Source of the DNA: the human T2T-CHM13v2.0 reference genome, Homo sapiens | NCBI GenBank assembly: GCA_009914755.4 | Contig: CP068257.2 | Span: forward strand, 9,344,001 to 9,408,000 | Reading direction: 5' to 3' | Length of the DNA: 64,000 bases | Part shown: positions 16,238-64,000 of the stretch, one piece after another | Position numbering within the stretch: the first letter of the stretch is position 1 | How the letters are laid out: each line of letters opens with the position of its first letter | Position numbers and translations under genes: made by a program | The notes under the pieces: model-generated | What the model was told of the DNA's origin: nothing | Databases searched by the model: none | What the model saw: the letters and a program-made list of their open reading frames with translations, nothing else

Positions 16238-16246
<9 letters not shown>
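15953..16246 (+). mobile_element. Alu SINE, plus orientation, followed by (TA)n
   Basis: ctaggcaggtgctgtggctcacacctgtaatcccaatactttgggaggctgagg...gtctctactaaaaatacaaaaaaaaaaatcagctgggcgtggtggcgggtgcctgtagtgctagctacttgggaggctgaggcagg...ctcctggaaaaaaaaa. Confidence 0.92.

Positions 16247-16294
<48 letters not shown>
16247..16294. repeat. (TA)n microsatellite (~24 repeats) at Alu tail, followed by short (CA)n
   Basis: Uninterrupted tatatata... from 16247 to 16294, then cacacacatatatacatg. Confidence 0.95.
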
Positions 16295-16304
<10 letters not shown>

Positions 16305-30300: not shown

Positions 30301-31918
30301 CTCCTTGAGAGTAATGTGGTGTGGTGGAAGAAAGATTTGCTGAGTGTTTGGAAGCTTACGTTTTAGCTTGGCCTCCAATATTTCCTCATAGTAAATCTCT
30401 AAAGCCCTTTGAATTCTTTGAATTCAATTTCCTCTGTGGCAAAATGGAGCTAGTAATGCAACCTCATGCAAACAACAGAGACTCAGATGAGAGAACTGAT
30501 ATGAAGACATTAATACAGCTGCAAAACATTATATAAATGCAAGGTATTATAATTACTAGTTCTGGTTCAATACAAGGCACTCCATGCATGTGGAAAATAA
30601 CTACCTATGGCCAAAAGGCGCATCATGAGTGTCTCCTCCTGCCACGGCTCCCCAGGTCTTCCGTCATCCCATTTCATTCCTAGAGGCAACCACTGTTCCT
30701 GGTGAGTGCTAAGGACCTTCTGGAAATAGCGACACAGCAAGAGATTTTGCTAAGTATGTTTAATAGACATAGGGCCCACTTCCCAGGAGAATACCTTTTA
30801 ATTTTAGTAGGACACAGTTTTCTCAAGATTTGCTCAAGATTTAAGGAATCGTACTTGCTCAAGATTTAAGGAATACCACTTAGGAATTTTTTTGGTTAAA
30901 ATAGAAAAGAGTAGGATCTGTATGCTGTTAGCTTGCTGAACCAGCCATTTCTCAGATGTGGGGTGAAATTCATGGAGTACCACCGAAGGGGTGGAAATAA
31001 CACAAGGAGCATGAGGTATCAGCCACATAGCTGCCTTCACTACCCAAAAGGTAGCATTTCTTTTCAAAGCTGTTTCTCCCCTTTCTCGTTTGTAGATCAC
31101 TGGGTGACAGCTCTGACAGAAACGAATAGCAGGTGGGATGACATGCGTTCGTGGGATTTAGGTTATAGTTTGGCTGTAACATATTGCTGTGTCTCTTTTT
31201 CCAGACATGCCTTCATTTCGTAGGCTCAACACCTCTTTTCAACGTAATGATTAGATTCAAGGCCTGCATTTCAGTCAAGACGTAGTCACGAGTCACTGTG
31301 TTCTTATTGTCACAGCTGGGGCTTCAAGCCCACATCAGCTCTTCCAGAAGATCAAGGGAGTCAGGCCACCCAGGAGCAGAGGAGAGGATGTCCCTCAAGA
31401 ATGAGACAGGAAATGCAGAGGAAATGGGACACCACCTGTCCTGGAAGACAAGGCCAGTCACGGTCTCGTAGCACTCATTCTAGGCAATCCACCCACCCAT
31501 GAGGGGAAACGTGGGGAAGAAGAAAGCTTCCCTGCCTGAGACACGTATGGAAGCCAAGAGCTCCTGGGTCATGATACCTGCCCAATTAAGCAGAAACAGG
31601 TTTGGAGACAGAAACGATCATGACACGGACCTCCAGGAAGTGTCTCCTTGACGGACTGGGAAGTCATCTTTGTTGAAGGCATTCGGCCAGAGTGAAACGC
31701 ATCCAGGCCCCTGAGAAATAGGGGAGGCAGAGCCAGAGGGAGGAGAGAGCAGAGGCCAGAGCACAGGCAGGATACAGCACTGTGCCACGGCCACGGGTGT
31801 AAGGGGTGGGGTTCCAAAAGGGTGGCTTGTCCAGAGAGGCCAGCGTTCCAGTGACAGGGATTGTTGCCATCTTCCATTCCCGGTTTCCTCTTGCTGACTG
31901 TATCGTGGAGTGGCTTCA

Positions 31919-32041
<123 letters not shown>

Positions 32042-32107
32042 CTAGAAAAGAGGCTGCACAGGATGGGGATGAGATTTCACTTGCTCCGGGAGCGACGCGT
32101 CTTCTCA

Positions 32108-32776
<669 letters not shown>

Positions 32777-33603
32777 CTAAGACAACCGTGGGAACCACTG
32801 TGACGGGAGAAACCGCTCGCGCCTAGCGCATGCGCATTGGCTGAGCCGACTCACGCTCCACTCCTGACAGATAGGCTGCGTCCCCTTTAAATATCGCCAC
32901 CGCTGCGTGGCGGCAGCGATGCTCCTGCTGCCGCCCCGGCAGCGCCTGTGTCCTGGGTCCTGTTTCAGGCGGCGTGGGAGAGGGGGCGACGGGTGTCTGG
33001 TCCTGTCCCACGCCCAAACCCCCAGGGCTCCTGTCCTCAGGACCTGCTTCAGCCGACTTCCACCAAGGGAGGGGGAGCTTCAGGATGCCTGCTGTGTTCT
33101 CTGGACTCCCGTTGAGATCCCATTCTGGCCCCTCCGAGTGACATAGGATGGGCTCACCACATGTGGTCAGGCCGGCAGGGCCTCGCTGCAGCACACAATG
33201 ACCCCATAGGTCTCAAGGCCTAGTGTCAGAGCAAACTCATTCATCCATCAGCCCTCTGCCTCCCTCCTCCTTTGAAAGAGCAGTGGCCTGCCCCGCTTGT
33301 AAAAGCCGAGGGGTTCCGGAAAGCCGACCATGCTTTACAGGACAACTGCAAAGAGGAAGAGAGGCGAAATCCAGGGGGAGACCATGTGACCACGCGTGGC
33401 ACTGGCCAATCCCACAGCAGTTGGTGTTAACGTGTGACACCGGAGGCAAACGGGGCGACGGCGAAACGAAGGGTGGGGTCCATGCACGTGCCGGTGGAAG
33501 GGGGAAACGGGTGACCTTTCCGTCAATGCCAAGGAAAATCAAACAACACCTGGGACCCAGAGGGTGTGGGGGACGTCTGTGCCTGACCCAAGCCACGTTT
33601 TCA

Positions 33604-34182
<579 letters not shown>

Positions 34183-36036
34183 CTAAGACAACCGTGGGAA
34201 CCACTGGGACGGGAGAAACCGCTGGCGCCTCACGCATGCGCATTGGCTGAGCCGACTCACGCTCCACTCCTGACAGATAGGCTGCGTCCCCTTTAAATAT
34301 CGCCACCGCCGCGCGGCGGCCGCGATGCTCCTGCTGCCGCCCCGGCGTCGGCTGTGTCCTGGGTCCTGTTTGGGGCGGCGTGGGAGCGGGGGCCGCGGGG
34401 GTCTCGTCGTGTCACAGGCCCAAACCCCCAGGGCTCCTGTCCTCAGGACCTGCTTGAGCCGATTTCCAGCGAGGGAGGGGGAGCTTCAGGACGCCTGCTG
34501 TGTGCTCCGGACTCCCGTTGAGATCCCATTCTGGCCCCCTCCGAGTGACATAGGATGGGCTCACCACATGTGGTCAGGCCGGCAGGGCCTCGCTGCAGCA
34601 CACAATGACCCCATAGGTCTCAAGGCCTAGTGTCAGAGCAAATTCACCGATCCATCACCCCTCTGCCTCCTTCCTCCTTTGAAAGAGCAGTGGCCTGCCC
34701 CGCTTGTAAAAGCCCAGGGGTTCCGGAAAGCCGAACGCGCTTTACAGGACAACTGCAAAGAGGAACAGAGGCGAAACCCAGGGGGAGACCATGTGACCAC
34801 GCGTGGCACTGGCCAATCCCACAGCAGTTGGTGTTAATGTATGTCACCGGAGGCATACGGGGCGACGGCGAAACGAAGGGTGGGGTCCAGGCATATGCCG
34901 GTGGAAGGGGCAAACGGGTGACATTTCCGTCAATGCCAAGGAAAATCAAACAACACCTGGGAACCGTGGGGTAGGGGGGCTTCCTGTGCCTGACCTAAGC
35001 CACGTTTTCAAATGCCTACCAGAGGAGCAAAGAGGTTTCTGCCAATTTCGCAACACCCCCAATCCTCCACCGACCTGGTAGCCCTGACGCAACTTCGGCT
35101 GGTACAAACCCACAGAGAGTGGGAAAGAAACACACAGAGAGTGAGAGACAGAGAGAGAAGAGAGAATGGGAGACACACACAGACACACACGCACACACAC
35201 GCAGAGTCATACAGCAGAGGCATTGAAACACACACTCCCAGGCAACCCCTGAGGATCCGGGGTTCTGCTCTGGAGGAGAACGACCCTCGGGTGAGAGAGC
35301 GGCCCAGGAGCACGCAGGCCGACCAGTCCTCGAGATCACTGACCGCGGCGCGACTTTTGGCGAGACTCACCCCAACAAACACCGTCCGTGCAGGCCTGAG
35401 GCTGGGATCCCGTGCTGCTTCCCCGGTCTCCACCTGGGGTTTCATCTTCATAGTCGGCCCTTTGCGACTGCTGGCATCAGGAGAGTTTCCCTTCGAGCCC
35501 GTGGAGAGGTGAGACCGGAGCCTCAGAGCCTCGATATCCAAGCACTGCCACGGAGGGCTCCTGCTCTGCAAAGCCTCGGGGACTGGTTTCTAAGACAACC
35601 GTGGGAACCACTGTGACCGGAGAAACCGCTGGGGCCTCGCGCATGCGCATTGGCTGAGCCGACTCACGCTCCACTCCTGACAGATAGGCTGCGTCCCCTT
35701 TAAATATTGCCACCGCCACGCGGCGGCCGCGATACTCCTGCTGCCGCCGCGGCAGCGGCTGTGTCCTGGGTCCTGTTTGGGGTGGCATGGGAGAGGGGAC
35801 CGCGGGTGTCTCGTCCTGTCCCAGGCCCAAACCCCCAGGGCTCCTGTCCTCAGGACCTGCTTGAGCCGACTTCCACCAAGGGAGGGGGAGCTTCAGGACG
35901 CCTGCTGTGTTCTCTGGACTCCCGTTGAGATCCCATTCTGGCCCCCTCCGAGTGACATAGGATGGGCTCACCACATGTGATCAGGCCGGCAGGGCCTCGC
36001 TGCAGCACACAATGACCCCATAGGTCTCAAGGCCTA

Positions 36037-37443
36037 GTGTCAGAGCAAACTCACTCATCCATCAGCCCTCTGCCTCCCTCCTCCTTTGAAAGTGCAGTGG
36101 CCTGCCCCGCTTGTAAAAGCCCAGGGGTTCGGGAAAGCCGAACGCGCTTTACAGGACAACTGCAAAGAGGAACAGAGGCGAAACCCAGGGGGAGACCATG
36201 TGACCACGCGTGGCACTGGCCAATCCCACAGCAGTTGGTGTTAATGTGTGTCACCGGAGGCATACGGGGCGACGGCGAAATGAAGGGTGGGGTCCAGGGA
36301 TATGCCGGTGGAAGGGGGAAACGGGTGACATTTCCGTCAACGCCAAGGAAAAACAAACAACACCTGGGAACCGTGGGGTAGGGGGGCCTCCTGTGCCTGA
36401 CCCAAGCCACGTTTTCAAATGCCTACCAGAGGAGCAAAGAGGTTTCGGCCAATTTCGCAACACCCCCAATCCTCCACCGACCTGGTAGCCCTGACGCAAC
36501 TTCGGCTGGTACAAACCCACAGAGAGTGGGAAAGAAACACACAGAGAGTGAGAGACAGAGAGAGAAGAGAGAATGGGAGACACACACAGACACACACGCA
36601 CACACACGCAGAGTCATACAGCAGAGGCATTGAAACACACACTCCCAGGCAACCCCTGAGGATCCGGGGTTCTGCTCTGGAGGAGAACGACCCTCGGGTG
36701 AGAGAGCGGCCCAGGAGCACGCAGGCCGACCAGTCCTCGAGATCACTGACCGCGGCGCGACTTTTGGCGAGACTCACCCCAACAAACACCGTCCGTGCAG
36801 GCCTGAGGCTGGGATCCCGTGCTGCTTCCCCGGTCTCCACCTGGGGTTTCATCTTCATAGTCGGCCCTTTGCGACTGCTGGCATCAGGAGAGTTTCCCTT
36901 CGAGCCCGTGGAGAGGTGAGACCGGAGCCTCAGAGCCTCGATATCCAAGCACTGCCACGGAGGGCTCCTGCTCTGCAAAGCCTCGGGGACTGGTTTCTAA
37001 GACAACCGTGGGAACCACTGTGACCGGAGAAACCGCTGGGGCCTCGCGCATGCGCATTGGCTGAGCCGACTCACGCTCCACTCCTGACAGATAGGCTGCG
37101 TCCCCTTTAAATATTGCCACCGCCACGCGGCGGCCGCGATACTCCTGCTGCCGCCGCGGCAGCGGCTGTGTCCTGGGTCCTGTTTGGGGTGGCATGGGAG
37201 AGGGGACCGCGGGTGTCTCGTCCTGTCCCAGGCCCAAACCCCCAGGGCTCCTGTCCTCAGGACCTGCTTGAGCCGACTTCCACCAAGGGAGGGGGAGCTT
37301 CAGGACGCCTGCTGTGTTCTCTGGACTCCCGTTGAGATCCCATTCTGGCCCCCTCCGAGTGACATAGGATGGGCTCACCACATGTGATCAGGCCGGCAGG
37401 GCCTCGCTGCAGCACACAATGACCCCATAGGTCTCAAGGCCTA
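36037..37443 (+). repeat. Representative complete monomer of the array (1407 bp), identical to its neighbour at 37444-38851 across every six-frame ORF pair compared
   Basis: Identical ORF translations at 36037/37444, 36415..36978 / 35008..35571 and 36884..37381 / 35477..35974. Confidence 0.9.
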
Positions 37444-37832
37444 GTGTCAGAGCAAACTCACTCATCCATCAGCCCTCTGCCTCCCTCCTCCTTTGAAAGT
37501 GCAGTGGCCTGCCCCGCTTGTAAAAGCCCAGGGGTTCGGGAAAGCCGAACGCGCTTTACAGGACAACTGCAAAGAGGAACAGAGGCGAAACCCAGGGGGA
37601 GACCATGTGACCACGCGTGGCACTGGCCAATCCCACAGCAGTTGGTGTTAATGTGTGTCACCGGAGGCATACGGGGCGACGGCGAAATGAAGGGTGGGGT
37701 CCAGGGATATGCCGGTGGAAGGGGGAAACGGGTGACATTTCCGTCAACGCCAAGGAAAAACAAACAACACCTGGGAACCGTGGGGTAGGGGGGCCTCCTG
37801 TGCCTGACCCAAGCCACGTTTTCAAATGCCTA

Positions 37833-38405
<573 letters not shown>

Positions 38406-38454
38406 CTAAGACAACCGTGGGAACCACTGTGACGGGAGAAACCGCTGGCGCCTA

Positions 38455-38550
38455 GCGCATGCGCATTGGCTGAGCCGACTCACGCTCCACTCCTGACAGA
38501 TAGGCTGCGTCCCCTTTAAATATCGCCACCGCCGCGCGGCGGCAGCGATG
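38455..38550 (+). promoter_or_regulatory. Per-monomer promoter-like cassette (one representative instance of ~23): NRF1 palindrome GCGCATGCGC (38455-38464), inverted CCAAT ATTGG (38465-38469), TATA-like TTTAAATA (38515-38522), ATG (38548)
   Basis: Motifs read directly. The same block gcgcatgcgcattggctgagccgactcacgctccactcctgacagataggctgcgtcccctttaaatat(c/t)gccaccgcc(g/a)cgcggcggc(c/a)gcgatgctcctgctgccgcc recurs in every monomer, for example at 32826, 35639, 37046 and 39870. Function is an inference. Confidence 0.4.
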
Positions 38551-39042
38551 CTCCTGCTGCCACCCCGGCAGCGCCTGTGTCCTGGGTCCTGTTTCAGGCG
38601 GCGTGGGAGAGGGGGCCACGGGTGTCTGTTCCTGTCCCAGGCCCAAACCCCCAGGGCTCCTGTCCTCAAGACCTGCTTGAGCCGACTTCCACCAAGGGAG
38701 GGGGAGCTTCAGGACGCCTGCTGTGTTCTCTGGACTCCCGTTGAGATCCCATTCTGCCCCCTCCGAGTGACATAGGATGGGCTCACCACACGTGATCAGG
38801 CCGGCAGGGCCTCGCTGCAGCACAAAATGATCCCATAGGTCTCAAGGCCTAGTGTCAGAGCAAATTCACTCATCCATCAGCCCTCTGCCTCCCTCCTCCT
38901 TTGAAAGAGCAGTGGCCTACCCCGCTTGTAAAAGCCCAGGGGTTCCGGAAAGCCGACTGTGCTTAACAGGACAACTGCAAAGAGGAAGAGTGGCGAAATC
39001 CAGGGGGAGACCATGTGACCACGCGTGGCACTGGCCAATCCC

Positions 39043-39063
39043 ACAGCAGTTGGTGTTAACGTG
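39043..39063 (+). promoter_or_regulatory. Direct CCAAT box (ggccaatcc) about 25 bp after a perfect 10-bp palindrome CCACGCGTGG (one representative instance of the per-monomer motif)
   Basis: gaccacgcgtggcactggccaatcccacagcagttgg is present in each monomer. The CCAAT is destroyed by a 1-bp deletion in the monomers at 41674 and 61395. Confidence 0.35.
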
Positions 39064-42061
39064 TGACACCGGAGGCAAACGGGGCGACGGCGAAACGAAG
39101 GGTGGGGTCCATGCACGTGCCGGTGGAAGGGGGAAACGGCTGACCTTTCCGTCAATGCCAAGGAAAATCAAACAACACCTGGGACCCGGAGGGTGTGGGG
39201 GACGTCTGTGCCTGACCCAAGCCACGTTTTCAAATGCCTACCAGAGGAACAAAGATGTTTCTGCCAATTTTGCAACACCCCCAATCCTCCACCGACCTCG
39301 TAGCCCTGAAGCAACTTCGGCTGGCATAAACCCACAAAGAGTGGGAAAGAAACACACAGAGACTGAGAGACAGAGGGAGAAGAGAGAATGGGAGACAAAC
39401 ACACAGACACACACACACACACGCAGAGTCATACAGCAGAGGCATTGAAACACACACACCCAGGCAACCCCTGAGGCTCCGAGGCTCCGGGGTTCTGCTC
39501 TGGAGGAGAACGACCCTCGGGTGAGAGAGCAGCCCAGGGGCACGCAGGCCGACCCGTCCTCGAGATCACGGACAGCGGCGCGACTTTTGGCGAGACTCAC
39601 CCCAACAAACACCGTCCGTGCAGGCCTGAGGCTGGGATCCCGTGCTGCTTCCCCGGTCTCCACCTGGGGTTTCATCTTCATAGTCGGCCCTTTGCGACTG
39701 CTGGCATCAGGAGAGTTTCCCTTCGAGCCAGTGGAGAGGTGAGACCGGAGCCTCAGAGCCTCGATACCCAAGCACTGCCACGGAGGGCTCCTGCTCTGCA
39801 AAGCCTCGGGGACTGGTTTCTAAGACAACCGTGGGAACCACTGTGACCCGAGAAACCGCTGGGGCCTCGCGCATGCGCATTGGCTGAGCCGACTCACGCT
39901 CCACTCCTGACAGATAGGCTGCGTCCCCTTTAAATATCGCCACCGCCGCGCGGCGGCCGCGGTGCTCCTGCTGCCGCCCCGGCGTCGGCTGTGTCCTGGG
40001 TCCTGTTTGGGGCGGCGTGGGAGCGGGGGCCACGGGTATCTGGTCTTGTCCCAGGCCCAAACCCCCAGGGCTCCTGTCCTCAGGACCTGCTTGAGCCGAC
40101 TTCCACCAAGGGAGGGGGAGCTTCAGGACGCCTGCTGTGTTCTCTGGACTCCCGTTGAGATCCCATTCTGGCCCCCTCCGAGTGACATAGGATGGGCTCA
40201 CCACACGTGGTCAGGCCGGCAGGGCCTCGCTGCAGCACAAAATGATCCCATACGTCTCAAGGCCTAGTGTCAGAGCAAATTCACTCATACATCAGCCATC
40301 TGCCTCCCTCCTCCTTTGAAAGAGCAGTGGCCTACCCCGCTTGTAAAAGCCCAGGGGTTAAGGAAAGCCGACCGTGCTTAAAAGGACAACTGCAAAGAGG
40401 AAGAGAGGCGAAATCCAGGGGGAGACCATGTGACCACGCGTGGCACTGGCCAATCCCACAGCAGTTGGTGTTAACGTGTGACACCGGAGGCAAACGGGGC
40501 GACGGCGAAACGAAGGGTGGGGTCCATGCACGTGCCGGTGGAAGGGGGAAACGGGTGACCTTTCCATCAATGCCAAGGAAAATCAAACAACACCTGGGAC
40601 CCGGAGGGTGTGGGGGACGTCTGTGCCTGACCCAAGCCACGTTTTCAAATGCCTACCAGAGGAACAAAGATGTTTCTGCCAATTTCGCAACACCCCCAAT
40701 CCTCCACCGACCTCGTAGCCCTGAAGCAACTTCGGCTGGCACAAACCCACAAAGAGTGGGAAAGAAACACACAGAGACTGAGAGACAGAGGGAGAAGAGA
40801 GAATGGGAGACAAACACACAGACACACACACACACACGCAGAGTCATACAGCACAGTCATTGAAACACACACCCCCAGGCAACCCCTGAGGCTCGGGGGT
40901 TCTGCTCTGGAGGAGAACGACCCTCGGGTGAGAGAGCAGCCCAGGGGCACGCAGGCCGACCCGTCCTCGAGATCACGGACAGCGGCGCGACTTTTGGCGA
41001 GACTCACCCCAACAAACACCGTCCGTGCAGGCCTGAGGCTGGGATCCCGTGCTGCTTCCCCGGTCTCCACCTGGGGTTTCATCTTCATAGTCGGCCCTTT
41101 GCGACTGCTGGCATCAGGAGAGTTTCCCTTCGAGCCAGTGGAGAGGTGAGACCGGAGCCTCAGAGCCTCGATACCCAAGCACTGCCACGGAGGGCTCCTG
41201 CTCTGCAAAGCCTCGGGGACTGGTTTCTAAGACAACCGTGGGAACCACTGTGACCCGAGAAACCGCTGGGGCCTCGCGCATGCGCATTGGCTGAGCCGAC
41301 TCACGCTCCACTCCTGACAGATAGGCTGCGTCCCCTTTAAATATCGCCACCGCCGCGCGGCGGCCGCGATGCTCCTGCTGCCGCCTCGAAGGCGGCTGTG
41401 TCCTGGGTCCTGTTTGGGGTGGCATGGGAGAGGGGACCGCGGGTGTCTCGTCCTGTCCCAGGCCCAAACCCCCAGGGCTCCTGTCCTCAGGACCTGCTTG
41501 AGCCGACTTCCACCAAGGGAGGGGGAGCTTCAGGACGCCTGCTGTGTTCTCTGGACTCCCGTTGAGATCCCATTCTGGCCCCCTCCGAGTGACATAGGAT
41601 GGGCTCACCACATGTGGTCAGGCCGGCAGGGCCTCGCTGCAGCACACAATGACCCCATAGGTCTCAAGGCCTAGTGTCAGAGCAAACTCACTCATCCATC
41701 AGCCCTCTGCCTCCCTCCTCCTTTGAAAGTGCAGTGGCCTGCCCCGCTTGTAAAAGCCCAGGGGTTCCGGAAAGCCGAACGCGCTTTACAGGACAACTGC
41801 AAAGAGGAACAGAGGCGAAACCCAGGGGGAGACCATGTGACCACGCGTGGCACTGGCAATCCCACAGCAGTTGGTGTTAATGTGTGTCACCGGAGGCATA
41901 CGGGGCGACGGCGAAACGAAGGGTGGGGTCCAGGCATATGCCGGTGGAAGGGGGAAACGGGTGACATTTCCGTCAGTGCCAAGGAAAATCAAACCACACC
42001 TGGGAACCGGGAGGTGGGGGTGCCGACTGTGCCTGACGCAAGCCACGTTTTCAAATGCCTA

Positions 42062-42637
<576 letters not shown>

Positions 42638-44812
42638 CTAAGACAACAGTGGGAACCACTGTGACGGGAGAAACCGCTGGCGCCTCACGCATGCGCATTG
42701 GCTGAGCCGACTCACGCTCCACTCCTGACAGATAGGCTGCGTCCCCTTTAAATATCGCCATCGCCGCGCGGCGGCCGCGATGCTCCTGCTGCCGCCCCGG
42801 CGTCGGCTGTGTCCTGGGTCCTGTTTGGGGTGGCGTGGGAGCGGGGGCCGCGGGTGTCTCGTCGTGTCACAGGCCCAAACCCCCAGGGCTCCTGTCCTCA
42901 GGACCTACTTGAGCCGATTTCCAGCGAGGGAGGGGGAGCTTCAGGACGCCTGCTGTGTGCTCCGGACTCCCGTTGAAATCCCATTCTGGCCCCCTCCGAG
43001 TGACATAGGATGGGCTCACCACATCTGGTCAGGCCGGCAGGGCCTCGCTGCAGCACAGAATGACCCCATAGGTCTCAAGGCCTAGTGTCAGAGCAAATTC
43101 ACTCATCCATCAGCCCTCTGCCTCCCTCCTCCTTTGAAAGAGCAGTGGCCTGCCCCGCTTGTAAAAGCCCAGGGGTTCCGGAAAGCCGAACGCGCTTTAC
43201 AGGACAACTGCAAAGAGGAACAGAGGCGAAATCCAGGGGGAGACCATGTGACCACGCGTGGCACTGGCCAATCCCACAGCAGTTGGTGTTAATGTGTGTC
43301 ACCGGAGGCATACGGGGCGACGGCGAAACGAAGGGTGGGGTCCATGCACGTGCCGGTGGAAGGGGGAAACGGGTGACCTTTCCGTCAATGCCAAGGAAAA
43401 TCAAACAACACCTGGGACCCGGAGGGTGTGGGGGACGTCTGTGCCTGACCCAAGCCACGTTTCCAAATGCCTACCAGAGGAAGAAAGATGTTTCTGCCAA
43501 TTTCGCAACACCCCCAATCCTCCACCGACCTCGTAGCCCTGAAGCAACTTCGGCTGGCACAAACCCACAAAGAGTGGGAAAGAAACACACAGAGACTGAG
43601 AGACAGAGGGAGAAGAGAGAATGGGAGACACACACACAGAGACACACGCACACACACGCAGAGTCATACAGCAGAGGCATTGAAACACACACGCCCAGGC
43701 AACCCCTGAGGCTCCGGGGTTCTGCTCTGGAGGAGAACGACCCTCGGGTGAGAGAGCAGCCCAGGGGCACGCAGGCCGACCCGTCCTCGAGATCACAGAC
43801 AGCGGAAAGGCTTTTGGCGAGACTCACCCCAACCAACACCGTCCGTGCAGGCCTGAGGCTGGGATCCCGTGCTGCTTCCCCCGTCTCCACCTGGGGTTTC
43901 ATCTTCATAGTCGGCCCTTTGCGACTGCTGGCATCAGGAGAGTTTCCCTTCGAGCCCATGGAGAGGTGAGACCGGAGCCTCAGAGCCTCGATACCCAAGC
44001 ACTGCCACGGAGGGATCCTGCTCTGCAAAGCCTCGGGGACTGGTTTCTAAGACAACCGTGGGAACCACTGTGACCGGAGAAACCGCTGGGGCCTCGCGCA
44101 TACGCATTGGCTGAGCCGACTCACGCTCCACTCCTGACAGATAGGCTGCGTCCCCTTTAAATATTGCCACCGCCGCGCGGCGGCCGCGATGCTCCTGCTG
44201 CCGCCGCGGCGGCGGCTGTGTCCTGGGTCCTGTTTGGGGTGGCATGGGAGAGGGGACCGAGGGTGTCTCGTCCTGTCCCAGGCCCAAACCCCCAGGGCTC
44301 CTGTCCTCAGGACCTGCTTGAGCCGACTTCCACCAAGGGAGGGGGACCTTCAGGACGCCTGCTGTGTTCTCTGGACTCCCGTTGAGATCCCATTCTGGCC
44401 CCCTCCGAGTGACATAGGATGGGCTCACCACATGTGGTCAGGCCGGCAGGGCCTCGCTGCAGCACACAATGACCCCATAGGTCTCAAGGCCTAGTGTCAG
44501 AGCAAACTCACTCATCCATCAGCCCTCTGCCTCCCTCCTCCTTTGAAAGAGCAGTGGCCTGCCCCGCTTGTAAAAGCCCAGGGGTTCCGGAAAGCCGAAC
44601 GCGCTTTACAGGACAACTGCAAAGAGGAACAGAGTCGAAACCCAGGGGGAGACCATGTGACCACGCGTGGCACTGGCCAATCCCACAGCACTTGGTGTTA
44701 ATGTGTGTCACCGGAGGCATACGGGGCGACGGCGAAACGAAGGGTGGGGTCCAGGCATATGCCGGTGGAAGGGGGAAACGGGTGACATTTCCGTCAGTGC
44801 GAATGAAAATCA

Positions 44813-45460
<648 letters not shown>

Positions 45461-47702
45461 CTAAGACAACAGTGGGAACCACTGTGACGGGAGAAACCGC
45501 TGGCGCCTCACGCATGCGCATTGGCTGAGCCGACTCACGCTCCACTCCTGACAGATAGGCTGCGTCCCCTTTAAATATCGCCACCGCCGCGCGGCGGCCG
45601 CGATGCTCCTGCTGCCGCCCCGGCGTCGGCTGTGTCCTGGGTCCTGCTTGGGGCGGCGTGGGAGCAGGGGCCGCGGGTGTCTCGTCGTGTCACAGGCCCA
45701 AACCCCCAGGGCTCCTGTCCTCAGGACCTGCTTGAGCCGATTTCCAGCGAGGGAGGGGGAGCTTCAGGACGCCTGCTGTGTGCTCCGGACTCCCGTTGAG
45801 ATCCCATTCTGGCCCCCTCCGAGTGACATAGGATGGGCTCACCACATCTGCTCAGGCCGGCAGGGCCTCGCTGCAGCACACAATGACCCCATAGGTCTCA
45901 AGGCCTAGTGTCAGAGCAAATTCACCGATCCATCACCCCTCTGCCTCCTTCCTCCTTTGAAAGAGCAGTGGCCTGCCCCGCTTGTAAAAGCCCAGGGGTT
46001 CCGGAAAGCCGAACGCGCTTTACAGGACAACTGCAAAGAGGAACAGAGGCGAAACCCAGGGGGAGACCATGTGACCACGCGTGGCACTGGCCAATCCCAC
46101 AGCAGTTGGTGTTAATGTATGTCACCGGAGGCATACGGGGCGACGGCGAAACGAAGGGTGGGGTCCAGGCATATGCCGGTGGAAGGGGCAAACGGGTGAC
46201 ATTTCCGTCAATGCCAAGGAAAATCAAACAACACCTGGGAACCGTGGGGTAGGGGGGCTTCCTGTGCCTGACCTAAGCCACGTTTTCAAATGCCTACCAG
46301 AGGAGCAAAGAGGTTTCTGCCAATTTCGCAACACCCCCAATCCTCCACCGACCTGGTAGCCCTGACGCAACTTCGGCTGGTACAAACCCACAGAGAGTGG
46401 GAAAGAAACACACAGAGAGTGAGAGACAGAGAGAGAAGAGAGAATGGGAGACACACACAGACACACACGCACACACACGCAGAGTCATACAGCAGAGGCA
46501 TTGAAACACACACTCCCAGGCAACCCCTGAGGATCCGGGGTTCTGCTCTGGAGGAGAACGACCCTCGGGTGAGAGAGCGGCCCAGGAGCACGCAGGCCGA
46601 CCAGTCCTCGAGATCACTGACCGCGGCGCGACTTTTGGCGAGACTCACCCCAACAAACACCGTCCGTGCAGGCCTGAGGCTGGGATCCCGTGCTGCTTCC
46701 CCGGTCTCCACCTGGGGTTTCATCTTCATAGTCGGCCCTTTGCGACTGCTGGCATCAGGAGAGTTTCCCTTCGAGCCCGTGGAGAGGTGAGACCGGAGCC
46801 TCAGAGCCTCGATATCCAAGCACTGCCACGGAGGGCTCCTGCTCTGCAAAGCCTCGGGGACTGGTTTCTAAGACAACGGTGGGAACCACTGTGACCGGAG
46901 AAACCGCTGGGGCCTCGCGCATGCGCATTGGCTGAGCCGACTCACGCTCCACTCCTGACAGATAGGCTGCGTCCCCTTTAAATATTGCCACCGCCACGCG
47001 GCGGCCGCGATACTCCTGCTGCCGCCGCGGTAGCGGCTGTGTCCTGGGTCCTGTTTGGGGTGGCATGGGAGAGGGGACCGCGGGTGTCTCGTCCTGTCCC
47101 AGGCCCAAACCCCCAGGGCTCCTGTCCTCAGGACCTGCTTGAGCCGACTTCCACCAAGGGAGGGGGAGCTTCAGGACGCCTGCTGTGTTCTCTGGACTCC
47201 CGTTGAGATCCCATTCTGGCCCCCTCCGAGTGACATAGGATGGGCTCACCACATGTGATCAGGCCGGCAGGGCCTCGCTGCAGCACACAATGACCCCATA
47301 GGTCTCAAGGCCTAGTGTCAGAGCAAACTCACTCATCCATCAGCCCTCTGCCTCCCTCCTCCTTTGAAAGTGCAGTGGCCTGCCCCGCTTGTAAAAGCCC
47401 AGGGGTTCGGGAAAGCCGAACGCGCTTTACAGGACAACTGCAAAGAGGAACAGAGGCGAAACCCAGGGGGAGACCATGTGACCACGCGTGGCACTGGCCA
47501 ATCCCACAGCAGTTGGTGTTAATGTGTGTCACCGGAGGCATACGGGGCGACGGCGAAATGAAGGGTGGGGTCCAGGGATATGCCGGTGGAAGGGGGAAAC
47601 GGGTGACATTTCCGTCAACGCCAAGGAAAAACAAACAACACCTGGGAACCGTGGGGTAGGGGGCCTCCTGTGCCTGACCCAAGCCACGTTTTCAAATGCC
47701 TA

Positions 47703-48275
<573 letters not shown>

Positions 48276-51200
48276 CTAAGACAACCGTGGGAACCACTGT
48301 GACGGGAGAAACCGCTGGCGCCTAGCGCATGCGCATTGGCTGAGCCGACTCACGCTCCACTCCTGACAGATAGGCTGCGTCCCCTTTAAATATCGCCACC
48401 GCCGCGCGGCGGCCGCGATGCTCCTGCTGCCGCCCCGGCAGCGCCTGTGTCCTGGGTCCTGTTTCAGGCGGCGTGGGAGAGGGGGCCACGGGTGTCTGTT
48501 CCTGTCCCAGGCCCAAACCCCCAGGGCTCCTGTCCTCAAGACCTGCTTGAGCCGACTTCCACCAAGGGAGGGGGAGCTTCAGGACGCCTGCTGTGTTCTC
48601 TGGACTCCCGTTGAGATCCCATTCTGGCCCCCTCCGAGTGACATAGGATGGGCTCACCACACGTGATCAGGCCGGCAGGGCCTCGCTGCAGCACAAAATG
48701 ATCCCATAGGTCTCAAGGCCTAGTGTCAGAGCAAATTCACTCATCCATCAGCCCTCTGCCTCCCTCCTCCTTTGAAAGAGCAGTGGCCTACCCCGCTTGT
48801 AAAAACCCAGGGGTTCCGGAAAGCCGACTGTGCTTAACAGGACAACTGCAAAGAGGAAGAGTGGCGAAATCCAGGGGGAGACCATGTGACCACGCGTGGC
48901 ACTGGCCAATCCCACAGCAGTTGGTGTTAACGTGTGACACCGGAGGCAAACGGGGCGACGGCGAAACGAAGGGTGGGGTCCATGCACGTGCCGGTGGAAG
49001 GGGGAAACGGCTGACCTTTCCGTCAATGCCAAGGAAAATCAAACAACACCTGGGACCCGGAGGGTGTGGGGGACGTCTGTGCCTGACCCAAGCCACGTTT
49101 TCAAATGCCTACCAGAGGAACAAAGATGTTTCTGCCAATTTTGCAACACCCCCAATCCTCCACCGACCTCGTAGCCCTGAAGCAACTTCGGCTGGCACAA
49201 ACCCACAAAGAGTGGGAAAGAAACACACAGAGACTGAGAGACAGAGGGAGAAGAGAGAATGGGAGACAAACACACAGACACACACACACACACGCAGAGT
49301 CATACAGCAGAGGCATTGAAACACACACACCCAGGCAACCCCTGAGGCTCGGGGGTTCTGCTCTGGAGGAGAACGACCCTCGGGTGAGAGAGCAGCCCAG
49401 GGGCACGCAGGCCGACCCGTCCTCGACATCACGGACAGCGGCGCGACTTTTGGCGAGACTCACCCCAACAAACACCGTCCGTGCAGGCCTGAGGCTGGGA
49501 TCCCGTGCTGCTTCCCCGGTCTCCACCTGGGGTTTCATCTTCATAGTCGGCCCTTTGCGACTGCTGGCATCAGGAGAGTTTCCCTTCGAGCCCGTGGAGA
49601 GGTGAGACCGGAGCCTCAGAGCCTCGATACCCAAGCACTGCCACGGAGGGCTCCTGCTCTGCAAAGCCTCGGGGACTGGTTTCTAAGACAACCGTGGGAA
49701 CCACCGTGACCCGAGAAACCGCTGGGGCCTCGCGCATGCGCATTGGCTGAGCCGACTCACGCTCCACTCCTGACAGATAGGCTGCGTCCCCTTTAAATAT
49801 CGCCACCGCCGCGCGGCGGCCGCGGTGCTCCTGCTGCCGCCCCGGCGTCGGCTGTGTCCTGGGTCCTGTTTGGGGCGGCGTGGGAGCGGGGGCCACGGGT
49901 ATCTGGTCCTGTCCCAGGCCCAAACCCCCAGGGCTCCTGTCCTCAGGACCTGCTTGAGCCGACTTCCACCAAGGGAGGGGGAGCTTCAGGACGCCTGCTG
50001 TGTTCTCTGGACTCCCGTTGAGATCCCATTCTGGCCCCCTCCGAGTGACATAGGATGGGCTCACCACACGTGGTCAGGCCGGCAGGGCCTCGCTGCAGCA
50101 CAAAATGATCCCATACGTCTCAAGGCCTAGTGTCAGAGCAAATTCACTCATACATCAGCCATCTGCCTCCCTCCTCCTTTGAAAGAGCAGTGGCCTACCC
50201 CGCTTGTAAAAGCCCAGGGGTTCCGGAAAGCCGACCGTGCTTAAAAGGACAACTGCAAAGAGGAAGAGAGGCGAAATCCAGGGGGAGACCATGTGACCAC
50301 GCGTGGCACTGGCCAATCCCACAGCAGTTGGTGTTAACGTGTGACACCGGAGGCAAACGGGGCGACGGCGAAACGAAGGGTGGGGTCCATGCACGTGCCG
50401 GTGGAAGGGGGAAACGGGTGACCTTTCCATCAATGCCAAGGAAAATCAAACAACACCTGGGACCCGGAGGGTGTGGGGGACGTCTGTGCCTGACCCAAGC
50501 CACGTTTTCAAATGCCTACCAGAGGAACAAAGATGTTTCTGCCAATTTCGCAACACCCCCAATCCTCCACCGACCTCGTAGCCCTGAAGCAACTTCGGCT
50601 GGCACAAACCCACAAAGAGTGGGAAAGAAACACACAGAGACTGAGAGACAGAGGGAGAAGAGAGAATGGGAGACAAACACACAGACACACACACACACAC
50701 GCAGAGTCATACAGCACAGTCATTGAAACACACACCCCCAGGCAACCCCTGAGGCTCGGGGGTTCTGCTCTGGAGGAGAACGACCCTCGGGTGAGAGAGC
50801 AGCCCAGGGGCACGCAGGCCGACCCGTCCTCGAGATCACGGACAGCGGCGCGACTTTTGGCGAGACTCACCCCAACAAACACCGTCCGTGCAGGCCTGAG
50901 GCTGGGATCCCGTGCTGCTTCCCCGGTCTCCACCTGGGGTTTCATCTTCATAGTCGGCCCTTTGCGACTGCTGGCATCAGGAGAGTTTCCCTTCGAGCCC
51001 GTGGAGAGGTGAGACCGGAGCCTCAGAGCCTCGATACCCAAGCACTGCCACGGAGGGCTCCTGCTCTGCAAAGCCTCGGGGACTGGTTTCTAAGACAACC
51101 GTGGGAACCACCGTGACCCGAGAAACCGCTGGGGCCTCGCGCATGCGCATTGGCTGAGCCGACTCACGCTCCACTCCTGACAGATAGGCTGCGTCCCCTT

Positions 51201-53270
51201 TAAATATCGCCACCGCCGCGCGGCGGCCGCGGTGCTCCTGCTGCCGCCCCGGCGTCGGCTGTGTCCTGGGTCCTGTTTGGGGCGGCGTGGGAGCGGGGGC
51301 CACGGGTATCTGGTCCTGTCCCAGGCCCAAACCCCCAGGGCTCCTGTCCTCAGGACCTGCTTGAGCCGACTTCCACCAAGGGAGGGGGAGCTTCAGGACG
51401 CCTGCTGTGTTCTCTGGACTCCCGTTGAGATCCCATTCTGGCCCCCTCCGAGTGACATAGGATGGGCTCACCACACGTGGTCAGGCCGGCAGGGCCTCGC
51501 TGCAGCACAAAATGATCCCATACGTCTCAAGGCCTAGTGTCAGAGCAAATTCACTCATACATCAGCCATCTGCCTCCCTCCTCCTTTGAAAGAGCAGTGG
51601 CCTACCCCGCTTGTAAAAGCCCAGGGGTTCCGGAAAGCCGACCGTGCTTAAAAGGACAACTGCAAAGAGGAAGAGAGGCGAAATCCAGGGGGAGACCATG
51701 TGACCACGCGTGGCACTGGCCAATCCCACAGCAGTTGGTGTTAACGTGTGACACCGGAGGCAAACGGGGCGACGGCGAAACGAAGGGTGGGGTCCATGCA
51801 CGTGCCGGTGGAAGGGGGAAACGGGTGACCTTTCCATCAATGCCAAGGAAAATCAAACAACACCTGGGACCCGGAGGGTGTGGGGGACGTCTGTGCCTGA
51901 CCCAAGCCACGTTTTCAAATGCCTACCAGAGGAACAAAGATGTTTCTGCCAATTTCGCAACACCCCCAATCCTCCACCGACCTCGTAGCCCTGAAGCAAC
52001 TTCGGCTGGCACAAACCCACAAAGAGTGGGAAAGAAACACACAGAGACTGAGAGACAGAGGGAGAAGAGAGAATGGGAGACAAACACACAGACACACACA
52101 CACACACGCAGAGTCATACAGCACAGTCATTGAAACACACACCCCCAGGCAACCCCTGAGGCTCGGGGGTTCTGCTCTGGAGGAGAACGACCCTCGGGTG
52201 AGAGAGCAGCCCAGGGGCACGCAGGCCGACCCGTCCTCGAGATCACGGACAGCGGCGCGACTTTTGGCGAGACTCACCCCAACAAACACCGTCCGTGCAG
52301 GCCTGAGGCTGGGATCCCGTGCTGCTTCCCCGGTCTCCACCTGGGGTTTCATCTTCATAGTCGGCCCTTTGCGACTGCTGGCATCAGGAGAGTTTCCCTT
52401 CGAGCCAGTGGAGAGGTGAGACCGGAGCCTCAGAGCCTCGATACCCAAGCACTGCCACGGAGGGCTCCTGCTCTGCAAAGCCTCGGGGACTGGTTTCTAA
52501 GACAACCGTGGGAACCACTGTGACCCGAGAAACCGCTGGGGCCTCGCGCATGCGCATTGGCTGAGCCGACTCACGCTCCACTCCTGACAGATAGGCTGCG
52601 TCCCCTTTAAATATCGCCACCGCCGCGCGGCGGCCGCGGTGCTCCTGCTGCCGCCCCGGCGTCGGCTGCGTCCTGGGTCCTGTTTGGGGCGGCGTGGGAG
52701 CGGGGGCCACGGGTATCTGGTCCTGTCCCAGGCCCAAACCCCCAGGGCTCCTGTCCTCAGGACCTGCTTGAGCCGACTTCCACCAAGGGAGGGGGAGCTT
52801 CAGGACGCCTGCTGTGTTCTCTGGACTCCCGTTGAGATCCCATTCTGGCCCCCTCCGAGTGACATAGGATGGGCTCACCACACGTGGTCAGGCCGGCAGG
52901 GCCTCGCTGCAGCACAAAATGATCCCATACGTCTCAAGGCCTAGTGTCAGAGCAAATTCACTCATACATCAGCCATCTGCCTCCCTCCTCCTTTGAAAGA
53001 GCAGTGGCCTACCCCGCTTGTAAAAGCCCAGGGGTTAAGGAAAGCCGACCGTGCTTAAAAGGACAACTGCAAAGAGGAAGAGAGGCGAAATCCAGGGGGA
53101 GACCATGTGACCACGCGTGGGACTGGCCAATCCCACAGCAGTTGGTGTTAACGTGTGACACCGGAGGCAAACGGGGCGACGGCGAAACGAAGGGTGGGGT
53201 CCATGCACGTGCCGGTAGAAGGGGGAAACGGGTGACCTTTCCATCAATGCCAAGGAAAATCAAACAACAC

Positions 53271-64000
<10,730 letters not shown>

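What the first reader, a model, noticed from the sequence alone, without database searches (positions are those of the whole stretch)
38455..38550. Every monomer carries a compact promoter-like cassette: NRF1 palindrome, inverted CCAAT, TATA-like box, then ATG
In each unit the string GCGCATGCGC is immediately followed by ATTGGCT. GCGCATGCGC is an exact match to the core NRF1 palindrome as I know it. ATTGGCT is CCAAT on the opposite strand, an NF-Y-type box. About 45 bp further on comes TTTAAATA, and about 26 bp after that comes ATGCTCCTGCTGCCGCC. A second, direct CCAAT box (ggccaatcc) sits about 1 kb downstream in the same monomer. The array is therefore potentially about 23 regularly spaced promoters. 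This resembles macrosatellites that are transcribed per unit, as known for D4Z4 and reported for NBL2-derived lncRNA. It would also make transcription of the array sensitive to CpG methylation. A few monomers deviate. The one at about 34233 has CACGCATGCGC. The monomers at 35732, 37139, 47010, 55453 and 56860 have ATG changed to ATA. The monomers at 39961, 49826 and 51233 have it changed to GTG. Motif presence is observed directly. Activity is inferred.
Basis: partly seen in the sequence, partly recalled or inferred. Interest (0 to 1): 0.6.

Follow-up and report, generated by a model that had tools for sequence, protein, structure and literature searches.

The report
Promoter core inside NBL2/SST1 repeat units
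The "ATG" is not part of it, and the known RNA runs the other way.

Summary
All 23 units of the ~1.41-kb array (window 32292-64000) carry [A/G]CGCAT[A/G]CGC + ATTGGCT, with TTTAAATA exactly 60 nt after the motif start.

- The second CCAAT lies 578 bp downstream, not ~1 kb.

The array is SST1 subfamily 1, also called NBL2. A published Pan SST1-sf1 probe aligns along its whole length at ~90%.

Published work already shows several things. NBL2 monomers have promoter activity. They are transcribed after demethylation into the antisense, non-polyA lncRNA TNBL. Transcribed SST1 units show two close, divergent PRO-seq peaks. The TSS and the responsible elements were never mapped.

My comparison of 11 divergent SST1 lineages gives these results:
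- The NRF1+CCAAT 20-mer is the best-conserved stretch of the unit outside the search anchor.
- Its CpGs are retained at 94%, against 60% for the unit as a whole.
- It sits on the unit's CpG peak.
- The ATG and its 101-aa ORF are not conserved.

Best reading: a methylation-sensitive, probably bidirectional NRF1/NF-Y CpG-island promoter core. The function is already known; the motif-level assignment is a new, testable refinement.

The parts
32292..64000 (+). Tandem array of SST1 subfamily 1 (NBL2) units, period 1406-1414 bp. It runs off the right end of the window. The + strand is the canonical repeat orientation: each unit starts with a GA-rich tract followed by (CA)n.
   Evidence: consensus position 872 onwards aligns from 32292; the published Pan SST1-sf1 probe aligns full length, + strand, ~90%.
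38355..38655 (.). CpG-island-like peak of the unit, shown for the unit at 38455 and repeated in every unit. In the consensus, the 200-bp window from -79 to +120 around the NRF1 site has GC 0.66, CpG o/e 1.02 and 22 CpGs.
38454..38465 (.). NRF1-type palindrome GCGCATGCGC. With flanks, the full consensus YGCGCAYGCGCR is met in 12/23 units. The core is exact in 16/23 units. Other copies start at 32826, 34232, 35639, 37046, 39869, 41276, 42687, 44096, 45510, 46917, 48325, 49732, 51139, 52546, 53953, 55360, 56767, 58176, 59590, 60997, 62408 and 63817.
   Evidence: Conserved in divergent SST1 lineages, with the two core CpGs kept in 11/11.
38465..38471 (-). Inverted CCAAT box (ATTGGCT; the minus strand reads AGCCAAT) directly abutting the NRF1 site. 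Present in 23/23 units.
   Evidence: 0-1 mismatches per column in 11 divergent lineages. The strict RRCCAATSR consensus fails at its last position.
38505..38522 (.). TATA-like box TTTAAATA inside the conserved block GGCTGCGTCCCCTTTAAA. It matches TATAWAWR at 7/8 positions on either strand. Present in 23/23 units, always 60 nt after the NRF1 start.
   Evidence: The conserved core across lineages is CCCCTTTAAA; the last three bases vary as GAA, CGA or TAC.
38548..38550 (+). The "ATG" (13 ATG, 5 ATA, 5 GTG in the window). It opens a non-conserved ORF of at most 101 aa. I do not consider it part of the functional element.
39953..39960 (.). NotI site GCGGCCGC between the TATA-like box and the ATG, 84 nt after the NRF1 start. 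Present in 19/23 units and absent in the units at 32826, 38455, 55360 and 58176. I infer this to be the NotI landmark through which NBL2 was discovered and on which its methylation is assayed; no paper gave the site's position in the unit.
   Evidence: Literature (PMC8582499, PMC5687341).
38414..38432 (+). Conserved block CCGTGGGAACCACTGTGAC, which starts 41 nt and ends 22 nt upstream of the NRF1 site. It contains a CGTGGGAA (RBPJ/CSL-type) match. I used it as the search anchor. It would lie downstream of the NRF1/CCAAT pair for minus-strand transcription.
   Evidence: exact 19-mer in 15 units, CGTGGGAA in 19 units.
39033..39041 (+). Second, direct CCAAT (GGCCAATCC), 578 bp downstream of the NRF1 site, in a second CpG-rich zone. 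Present in 20/22 complete units. Lost in the most divergent lineages.

Best explanation
The window contains an SST1 subfamily-1 (NBL2) macrosatellite array. Each 1.4-kb unit has a small CpG island. At its centre is a composite site: an NRF1 palindrome abutting an inverted CCAAT (NF-Y-type) box, followed 43 nt later by a TTTAAA element.

I propose that this composite is the core of the internal promoter already demonstrated for NBL2 monomers. When the array is CpG-methylated, as in normal somatic cells, NRF1 cannot bind its CpG-containing site and the units are silent. When methylation is lost (cancer, 5-aza treatment, ICF syndrome, sperm), NRF1 and NF-Y can bind each unit and open chromatin. 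Transcription then starts divergently from the NRF1/CCAAT pair.

The minus-strand direction in this window gives the long read-through, non-polyadenylated TNBL RNA. The unit has no AATAAA or ATTAAA on either strand. The plus-strand direction may use the TTTAAA element and start near the NotI site. The ATG and its ORF are incidental.

Shown: the sequence identity, the motif anatomy, the conservation pattern and the CpG peak. Taken from the literature: monomer-level promoter activity, methylation dependence, antisense TNBL, divergent PRO-seq peaks and NRF1 methyl-sensitivity. Inferred: that this particular cassette is the promoter, that NRF1 and NF-Y are the factors, and the strand assignment.
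For: Identity:
- A printed Pan SST1-sf1 probe aligns over its whole length at ~90%.
- The 1.4-kb period, 61% GC, a NotI site per unit and a GA-rich+(CA)n unit start all match the published descriptions.

Anatomy:
- The composite is present in 23/23 units with fixed spacing.

Constraint:
- The longest invariant run of the 22-unit alignment is columns 8-69, running from the NRF1 second half to the TATA-like box (62 nt, permutation P=0.007).
- In 11 divergent lineages, CCTCGCGCATGCGCATTGGC has a mismatch fraction of 0.023, against a unit mean of 0.183. It is the best window outside the forced anchor.
- AGGCTGCGTCCCCTTTAAAT scores 0.045, while the spacers between the blocks are freely variable.
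- CpG retention is 31/33 at the NRF1 site against 461/764 over the whole unit.
- The CpG o/e maximum (1.02) is centred on the cassette.

Function, from the literature:
- Monomers drive luciferase at up to one third of CMV. Transcription appears only after AZA/TSA. RACE failed, so the TSS is unmapped (PMC6009586).
- Transcribed SST1 units show two internal divergent PRO-seq peaks.
- The chr19 SST1 array shows periodic per-unit DMRs.
- NRF1 is methyl-sensitive.
- An NRF1-dependent, methylation-repressed lncRNA promoter in tandem repeats is documented for TERRA (PMC6600276).
Against: - No binding, CAGE or PRO-seq data could be mapped here. The position of the published PRO-seq peaks within the unit is not given in the text I could read.
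- The luciferase data are for whole 1.4-kb monomers. A second CpG-rich zone (consensus 500-800, with CCAAT and CACGTG) could be the active part instead.
- The comparative sample was ascertained with an exact 19-mer that ends 22 nt from the NRF1 site. That favours locally well-preserved copies.
- In five copies whose anchor is degraded, NRF1 is kept in 3, CCAAT in 2 and TTTAAA in 5.
- Conservation and CpG retention could reflect germline hypomethylation plus gene conversion rather than selection for promoter function.
- The NRF1 site and the CCAAT box abut directly, so simultaneous occupancy is not guaranteed.
- The CCAAT flanks fail the strict RRCCAATSR consensus at one position, and no strict TATAWAWR is present.
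- Acrocentric/centromeric arrays were silent in CHM13.
Confidence: 0.58

Rival explanations
1. Passenger motifs. The cassette is a relic, for example of the promoter of the element SST1 derives from, copied along with the unit. The promoter activity measured for whole monomers resides elsewhere in the 1.4 kb. The conservation reflects germline hypomethylation and array homogenisation, not function.
For: - All 23 copies descend from one occurrence, and a 14-unit block is duplicated at 99.8-100%.
- A second CpG-rich zone with CCAAT and an E-box exists at consensus 500-800.
- NBL2 is reported to be hypomethylated in sperm, which alone would slow CpG decay.
- Degraded copies do lose NRF1 or CCAAT.
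Against: - CpG retention is specifically high at the NRF1 CpGs (94%), against 60% for the unit as a whole and 0-80% for CpGs 70-90 nt away.
- The spacers between the conserved blocks vary freely. That is the pattern expected of discrete binding sites rather than of regional protection.
- The second CCAAT is lost in the most divergent lineages.
Confidence: 0.2
2. An enhancer-like or chromatin-organising element rather than a promoter of a stable RNA. NRF1/NF-Y binding would give short divergent unstable transcripts and open chromatin in each unit. TNBL would start from some other point or from only a few units.
For: - Hoyt et al. describe the paired divergent PRO-seq peaks as characteristic of promoters and enhancers, and speak of an enhancer embedded in each unit of the chr4 and chr19 arrays.
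- TNBL has discrete sizes of 13, 10 and 4.2 kb, not a 1.4-kb ladder.
Against: Individual monomers act as promoters in a promoterless luciferase vector. The enhancer/promoter distinction cannot be settled from sequence.
Confidence: 0.14
3. One reading: a unidirectional TATA-type promoter on the plus strand, whose transcript starts before the ATG and encodes a small protein in each unit (D4Z4/DUX4-like).
For: - The geometry fits on the plus strand. The CCAAT lies about 75-80 nt and TTTAAATA about 30 nt upstream of a start near the NotI site (sequence).
- A 101-aa ORF is open in 12 of 23 units.
- Variable sites are enriched at the third codon position: 14/8/24, P=0.014.
- The only G4 motif of the unit lies on the plus strand 47 nt downstream of the ATG.
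Against: - The start codon is lost in 10/23 units.
- The ORF is truncated to 75, 82 or 7 aa in 10 units.
- The start codon is absent, and frameshifts or stop codons occur, in all non-sf1 lineages.
- Synonymous excess is not significant: 18 synonymous against 32 non-synonymous, P=0.16.
- There is no Pfam family.
- The ATG would lie within about 10 nt of a TATA-directed start.
- The published strand-specific RT and Northern data detect only antisense RNA.
Confidence: 0.05
4. A structural, non-B DNA element. CGCGCATGCGCA is a 12-nt alternating pyrimidine-purine tract that could adopt Z-DNA and contribute to fragility rather than to transcription.
For: - The alternating sequence is visible directly.
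- SST1 arrays are reported as peaks of predicted Z-DNA.
Against: The published Z-DNA enrichment is attributed to the ~135-bp spacer between annotated units, that is the (CA)n tract, not to this site. A structural role does not explain the conserved adjacent CCAAT and TTTAAA.
Confidence: 0.03

Closest known systems
NBL2 / SST1-sf1 macrosatellite and its lncRNA TNBL (Dumbovic et al. 2018, PMC6009586)
   Same: It is the same repeat: 1.4-kb unit, CpG-rich, a NotI site per unit, a GA-rich+(CA)n unit start, and sequence homology. Internal promoter activity and methylation-dependent silencing are already published.
   Different: The paper did not map the TSS (RACE failed) and named no element; it says only that "more than 30 consensus sequences" are under investigation. 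The NRF1+CCAAT+TTTAAA core is a specific candidate that I found in no paper.
Transcribed SST1 units in T2T-CHM13 (Hoyt et al., bioRxiv 10.1101/2021.07.12.451456)
   Same: Two closely spaced, oppositely oriented internal PRO-seq peaks per unit. This is what a bidirectional NRF1/NF-Y CpG-island promoter would give.
   Different: Those active copies are the chr4 and chr19 arrays and solitary units on chromosomes 9, 13, 14 and 21. Large centromere-proximal arrays like this one were silent in that cell line. The peak position within the unit is not stated in the text.
TERRA subtelomeric CpG-island promoters in 61-29-37-bp repeats (Le Berre et al. 2019, PMC6600276)
   Same: A tandem-repeat-embedded CpG island drives a long non-coding RNA, is silenced by CpG methylation, and is activated through methyl-sensitive NRF1 on demethylation.
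   Different: The repeats are unrelated in sequence and have much shorter units. NRF1 dependence is shown experimentally there and only inferred here.
D4Z4 macrosatellite (DUX4)
   Same: A CpG-rich macrosatellite, hypomethylated in disease (ICF, as for NBL2), with a promoter and transcripts in each unit.
   Different: D4Z4 units encode a conserved homeobox ORF. The ORF after the ATG here is not conserved. The unit size and sequence are unrelated.
Housekeeping-type bidirectional CpG-island promoters with NRF1 and NF-Y sites
   Same: A palindromic NRF1 site plus a CCAAT box at the centre of a CpG island, with no strict TATA box. From general knowledge, both factors work in either orientation and are enriched in bidirectional promoters.
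   Different: Here the element is reiterated head-to-tail every 1.4 kb in constitutive heterochromatin and is normally methylated. The NRF1 and CCAAT sites abut with no spacer.

Membership tests
SST1 subfamily 1 (NBL2) macrosatellite | Sequence homology to published SST1-sf1 | tested here: met
   The Pan SST1-sf1 FISH probe printed in PMC12657243 aligns over all 1253 nt to the unit consensus. The alignment is on the plus strand at 89-90% identity, except for the GA/(CA)n spacer that the probe lacks.
SST1 subfamily 1 (NBL2) macrosatellite | Tandem units of ~1.4 kb, 90-99% alike, each starting with a GA-rich tract and a variable (CA)n | tested here: met
   Period 1406-1414 bp. Pairwise identity 92.3-100%, mean 95.2%. 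The array begins at 32292 with the GA-rich tract. Description from PMC6009586.
SST1 subfamily 1 (NBL2) macrosatellite | CpG-rich unit (~62% GC) with a NotI site | tested here: met
   GC 0.61 and 82 CpGs per unit. NotI is present in 19/23 units. Literature.
SST1 subfamily 1 (NBL2) macrosatellite | PRDM9 13-mer CCNCCNTNNCCNC in the unit | tested here: inconclusive
   Present in 11 of 23 units, about 218 nt upstream of the NRF1 site. Absent from my majority consensus.
SST1 subfamily 1 (NBL2) macrosatellite | [quoted passage not shown] | not testable with these tools
   No human reference genome is available. Host-derived metagenome contigs match the array at up to 98%, which is compatible with a human paralogue.
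NRF1/NF-Y CpG-island (bidirectional) promoter | CpG island (at least 200 bp, GC > 0.5, o/e > 0.6) | tested here: met
   Windows from -119 to +240 around the NRF1 site have GC 0.61-0.70 and o/e 0.78-1.02.
NRF1/NF-Y CpG-island (bidirectional) promoter | NRF1 consensus YGCGCAYGCGCR | tested here: met
   The consensus unit and 12/23 units match all 12 positions. 16/23 units match the 10-nt core.
NRF1/NF-Y CpG-island (bidirectional) promoter | NF-Y site RRCCAATSR | tested here: inconclusive
   The CCAAT pentamer is present in 23/23 units. With flanks it reads AGCCAATGC, which matches 8 of 9 positions and fails the last R.
NRF1/NF-Y CpG-island (bidirectional) promoter | Transcription start sites flanking the element; factor occupancy | not testable with these tools
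   No CAGE, PRO-seq or ChIP data are accessible. In the literature RACE failed, and divergent internal PRO-seq peaks are reported without coordinates.
NRF1/NF-Y CpG-island (bidirectional) promoter | Promoter activity of the fragment | not tested
   Activity is published only for whole 1.4-kb monomers. The cassette itself has not been tested.
TATA-box core promoter | TATAWAWR about 25-31 nt upstream of the start | tested here: not met
   No strict match exists in the unit. TTTAAATA matches 7/8 positions on either strand. Only CCCCTTTAAA is conserved across lineages.
Coding macrosatellite (D4Z4/DUX4-like) | A conserved ORF with an intact start codon in each unit | tested here: not met
   ATG is present in 13/23 units, and the ORF is cut to 75, 82 or 7 aa in 10 units. 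It is broken in all non-sf1 lineages. No Pfam match. Synonymous excess is not significant.

The most novel reading that the evidence does not exclude
The abutting NRF1+CCAAT site is the ancestral, actively maintained control element of the whole SST1 family (sf1, sf2 and Y-linked sf3). Its occupancy in the germline is suggested by the reported sperm hypomethylation of NBL2 and by the selective survival of its CpGs. Such occupancy would make every unit a small open, promoter-like island. That could contribute to the recombination proneness of the acrocentric SST1 arrays, which are the common Robertsonian breakpoint, alongside or instead of the PRDM9 motif that only about half the units here carry.
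Probability: 0.1. Interest if true: 0.65.

Novelty: already known. Interest (0 to 1): 0.3.

Why it matters
NBL2/SST1 hypomethylation is a recurrent cancer and ICF-syndrome marker. The same arrays are the common breakpoint of Robertsonian translocations. Internal promoters in the units are published, but the start site and the responsible elements were never mapped. A defined 70-nt candidate turns that gap into a simple experiment: mutate two sites in an existing reporter construct, and remap existing ChIP and PRO-cap data to a unit consensus. The candidate also gives a mechanistic reason for the strict methylation dependence of TNBL. The NotI site that I infer to be the classical NBL2 methylation-assay site lies about 15 nt downstream of the TTTAAA element. 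The assays may therefore have been reading the state of the putative promoter.

Tried and rejected
1. Tandem Repeats Finder cannot see the array because its period limit is 500. I derived the period from motif positions instead.
2. Coding reading. A third-codon-position excess of variable sites (14/8/24, P=0.014) looked coding-like. The synonymous excess, however, is not significant, and the ORF is broken in other lineages. There is no Pfam hit. Rejected.
3. Rfam scan of the whole window found no known RNA family. An snRNA-type "gene per unit" model, as in RNU2, is therefore not supported.
4. GC skew around the cassette gave no directional signal.
5. Primer and probe sequences that would fix the TNBL strand directly were not found. 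The supplements of PMC6009586 are not held, and the methods give no sequences. [quoted passage not shown]
6. The genome-contig scan gave only 2 chance bacterial hits. Twelve anchor occurrences in 12 of the 110 loci fetched (108 metagenome, 2 genome contigs) were non-SST1 chance matches and were removed.
7. A Markov simulation timed out. I replaced it with the analytic expectation.
8. They could only add more copies, not binding or TSS data.
9. The bacterial promoter/terminator scanner was not used because it does not apply to a primate sequence.
Full report
**What is in the window**

From 32292 to the right end the window is a head-to-tail array with GC about 0.60. The flank to its left has GC about 0.40.

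Tandem Repeats Finder misses the array because its period limit is 500. The 17-mer GCGCATGCGCATTGGCT recurs 23 times on the plus strand at intervals of 1406-1414 bp.

The 22 complete units are 92.3-100% identical, with a mean of 95.2%. About 10 kb (34000-44279) is repeated without gaps 19721 bp (14 units) further on, at 99.8-100% identity. The units are therefore far from independent.

**Check of the observation**

Every unit has [A/G]CGCAT[A/G]CGC followed directly by ATTGGCT. TTTAAATA starts exactly 60 nt after the motif start in 23/23 units, and the "ATG" position lies 93 nt after it.

Corrections:
- The exact palindrome survives in 16/23 units.
- The start codon is ATG in 13 units, ATA in 5 and GTG in 5.
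- The direct CCAAT (GGCCAATCC) is 578 bp downstream, not about 1 kb. It is missing in two of the 22 complete units.

The recurrence is due to amplification, so the fair chance question concerns one unit. A first-order Markov model of the unit expects 0.0028 NRF1 cores. It expects 1.6e-4 NRF1 cores with a CCAAT within 40 nt. The 32-kb flank has no NRF1 core or half-site.

**Identity**

A full-text search for the motif string found it inside a FISH probe sequence printed in the Robertsonian-chromosome paper (PMC12657243). The probe is labelled chimpanzee/bonobo SST1-sf1. It aligns to my unit consensus over its whole length, on the plus strand, at 89-90% identity. The exception is the GA-rich/(CA)n tract, which the probe lacks.

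That paper equates SST1 subfamily 1 with NBL2, the repeat on the acrocentric short arms. The published description of NBL2 fits on four counts:
- units of 1.4 kb
- 62% GC
- a NotI site per unit

I infer this to be the NotI site through which NBL2 was discovered and at which its methylation is assayed. No paper I read gives the site's position in the unit, but one search shows only one NotI site per unit.

**What is already known about function**

Dumbovic et al. (PMC6009586) reported the following:
- NBL2 is silent when methylated and is transcribed after 5-aza/TSA treatment or in hypomethylated tumours.
- The RNA (TNBL) is nuclear, non-polyadenylated, 4.2-13 kb long, and antisense to the repeat.
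- Ten full monomers individually drive luciferase, the best at one third of CMV strength, whereas the flanking transposon fragments do not.
- 5' and 3' RACE failed, and no element was named ("more than 30 consensus sequences... under investigation").

Hoyt et al. (bioRxiv 10.1101/2021.07.12.451456) found that transcribed SST1 units have two internal, closely spaced PRO-seq peaks in opposite orientations. They also found that centromere-proximal arrays were silent in CHM13.

A placental nanopore study saw periodic per-unit differentially methylated regions in the chr19 SST1 array.

No paper in the library co-mentions NRF1 or NF-Y with SST1, NBL2, MER22 or TTY2.

**New comparative evidence**

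I scanned public metagenome contigs for a 19-mer just upstream of the cassette, CCGTGGGAACCACTGTGAC, which is identical in the window and the Pan probe. This recovered 108 contigs. The same 19-mer scan of bacterial and archaeal genome contigs added two more, both chance hits. Across these 110 loci there were 125 anchor occurrences, of which 113 are SST1-like host-DNA contaminants and 12 are chance matches. The SST1-like copies span sf1-like copies and several much more divergent lineages.

*Conservation by position.* I aligned eleven representative lineages, including the Pan probe, to the unit.
- The mean mismatch fraction per column is 0.183.
- The best-conserved 20-nt window outside the forced anchor is CCTCGCGCATGCGCATTGGC (0.023).
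- AGGCTGCGTCCCCTTTAAAT scores 0.045.
- The spacers between these blocks change in up to 10-11 of 11 lineages.
- The conserved part of the "TATA" is CCCCTTTAAA. The following TAT becomes GAA, CGA or TAC.
- The three ATG positions differ in 3, 6 and 3 of 10 lineages.

*CpG retention.* CpGs are retained in 461/764 cases over the unit (60%), but in 31/33 at the NRF1 site. Both core CpGs are kept in 11/11 lineages.

*Variation within the window's own array.* The longest invariant run is columns 8-69, from the NRF1 second half to the TATA-like box (62 nt, permutation P=0.007). The 100 nt just downstream (consensus 101-200) has the most variable columns and the second-highest mean divergence of the 100-nt bins.

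*CpG density.* The CpG o/e maximum of the unit (1.02) is centred on the cassette.

*Caveat.* The anchor ends 22 nt from the NRF1 site, so the sample favours locally intact copies. In five copies whose anchor is degraded, NRF1 survives in 3, CCAAT in 2 and TTTAAA in 5.

**The ATG**

The ORF from the ATG reaches 101 aa in 12 units. It is cut to 75, 82 or 7 aa in 10 others, and the last unit runs off the window. It has no Pfam match.

Variable sites are enriched at third codon positions (14/8/24). However, synonymous changes are not significantly in excess: 18 against 32 non-synonymous, P=0.16.

In other lineages the start is GTG, ATT, AGG, GGG or ACG. The frame there is interrupted by stops or frameshifts.

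A start directed by the TTTAAA element would fall at about consensus 86-92, only 2-9 nt before the ATG. I conclude that the ATG is incidental.

**Orientation**

The window's plus strand shows the GA-rich tract followed by (CA)n at each unit start, and the array begins at that point. The printed probe also matches the plus strand. The plus strand is therefore the canonical repeat orientation, and TNBL, being antisense, should be the minus strand. This is an inference, since no primer sequences were available.

It fits with TNBL's strong binding to CELF1. From general knowledge CELF1 prefers UG-rich RNA, and only the minus-strand RNA carries (UG)n.

The NRF1 site is palindromic, and NF-Y works in either orientation. 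On the plus strand the CCAAT box and the TATA-like element sit at classical distances from a start near the NotI site. On the minus strand the CCAAT reads forward, and an Inr-like CCAGTCC lies 69 nt downstream of it. That is a low-information match, which I read by eye and did not score.

Neither strand of the unit has AATAAA or ATTAAA. This is consistent with long read-through, non-polyA RNA.

**Conclusion**

The motif cluster is real and is the most constrained part of the unit. It is the natural candidate for the internal, methylation-silenced and probably bidirectional promoter that the literature has already demonstrated at the monomer level.

The nearest mechanistic precedent is the NRF1-dependent, methylation-repressed TERRA promoter in subtelomeric repeats (PMC6600276). 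NRF1's methyl-sensitivity is well established (PMC9729108, citing Domcke 2015).

What remains unproven is that NRF1 and NF-Y bind here, and that initiation occurs at this site rather than at the second CpG-rich zone (consensus 500-800).

At the level of "NBL2 units carry methylation-sensitive promoters" the finding is already known. The motif-level assignment is a modest, testable refinement.

Noticed in passing
window 34000-44279 versus 53721-64000: About 10 kb of the array is duplicated without gaps at an offset of 19721 bp (14 units), with 99.8-100% identity. This is a recent block duplication or higher-order repeat within the array.
   Followed up: partly
window 32608, 34014, 38237, 42469, 43878, 45292, 48107, 53735, 57958, 62190, 63599 (13-mers, + strand): The PRDM9 A-allele motif CCNCCNTNNCCNC (CCCCCGTCTCCGC) occurs in only 11 of 23 units, about 218 nt upstream of the NRF1 site. 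The other units carry a variant that breaks the motif.
   Followed up: partly
window 30508-32291; loci L053, L102, L043, L083, L067, L065, L066, L013: The sequence left of the array (31344-32291) is not similar to the unit consensus, yet it is shared at 83-96% with many host-derived contigs that also carry SST1. Homology breaks sharply at 31344 for most contigs, but L053 continues to 30508. This suggests two versions of a multi-copy array flank.
   Followed up: partly
loci L095, L042, L067, L023, L096, L053, L068, L050: In these loci the SST1 homology ends about 12 nt after the TATA-like box (there TTTAAAGAA). A common non-SST1 flank follows, 97.8-99.7% identical between contigs. In L068 a full unit precedes it. 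This is a multi-copy array end placed right after the cassette, and the NRF1+CCAAT pair is intact in the terminal partial unit.
   Followed up: partly
window 38416-38423 and the equivalent position in 19 units in all: A perfect CGTGGGAA (RBPJ/CSL-type consensus) lies inside the conserved block CCGTGGGAACCACTGTGAC, which ends 22 nt upstream of the NRF1 site. It is 8 nt long, so it could be a chance match.
   Followed up: no
window 41416-41443 and the equivalent position in 19 of 23 units: The only canonical G-quadruplex motif of the unit is GGGGCGGCGTGGGAGAGGGGGCCGCGGG, on the + strand, 47 nt downstream of the ATG position. A published report says that G4s in SST1 are less methylated than the rest of the satellite in CHM13.
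   Followed up: no
unit consensus, both strands: There is no AATAAA or ATTAAA anywhere in the 1409-nt unit. This fits the long, non-polyadenylated, multi-unit TNBL transcripts.
   Followed up: no
window 22428-22885; 16246-16306; 11994-12184: The AT-richer flank holds a 16-bp minisatellite (AGGGTTGGTGTAGGAA, 29 copies), an (AT)30 tract and a 63-bp x3 repeat. It has no ORF over 150 aa outside the minisatellite and no Rfam match.
   Followed up: no
window ORF 41369-41674 and equivalents: Variable sites in the 101-aa ORF are enriched at third codon positions (14/8/24, P=0.014), even though the ORF is clearly not conserved. This is unexplained and may be a compositional periodicity of the GC-rich sequence.
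   Followed up: partly
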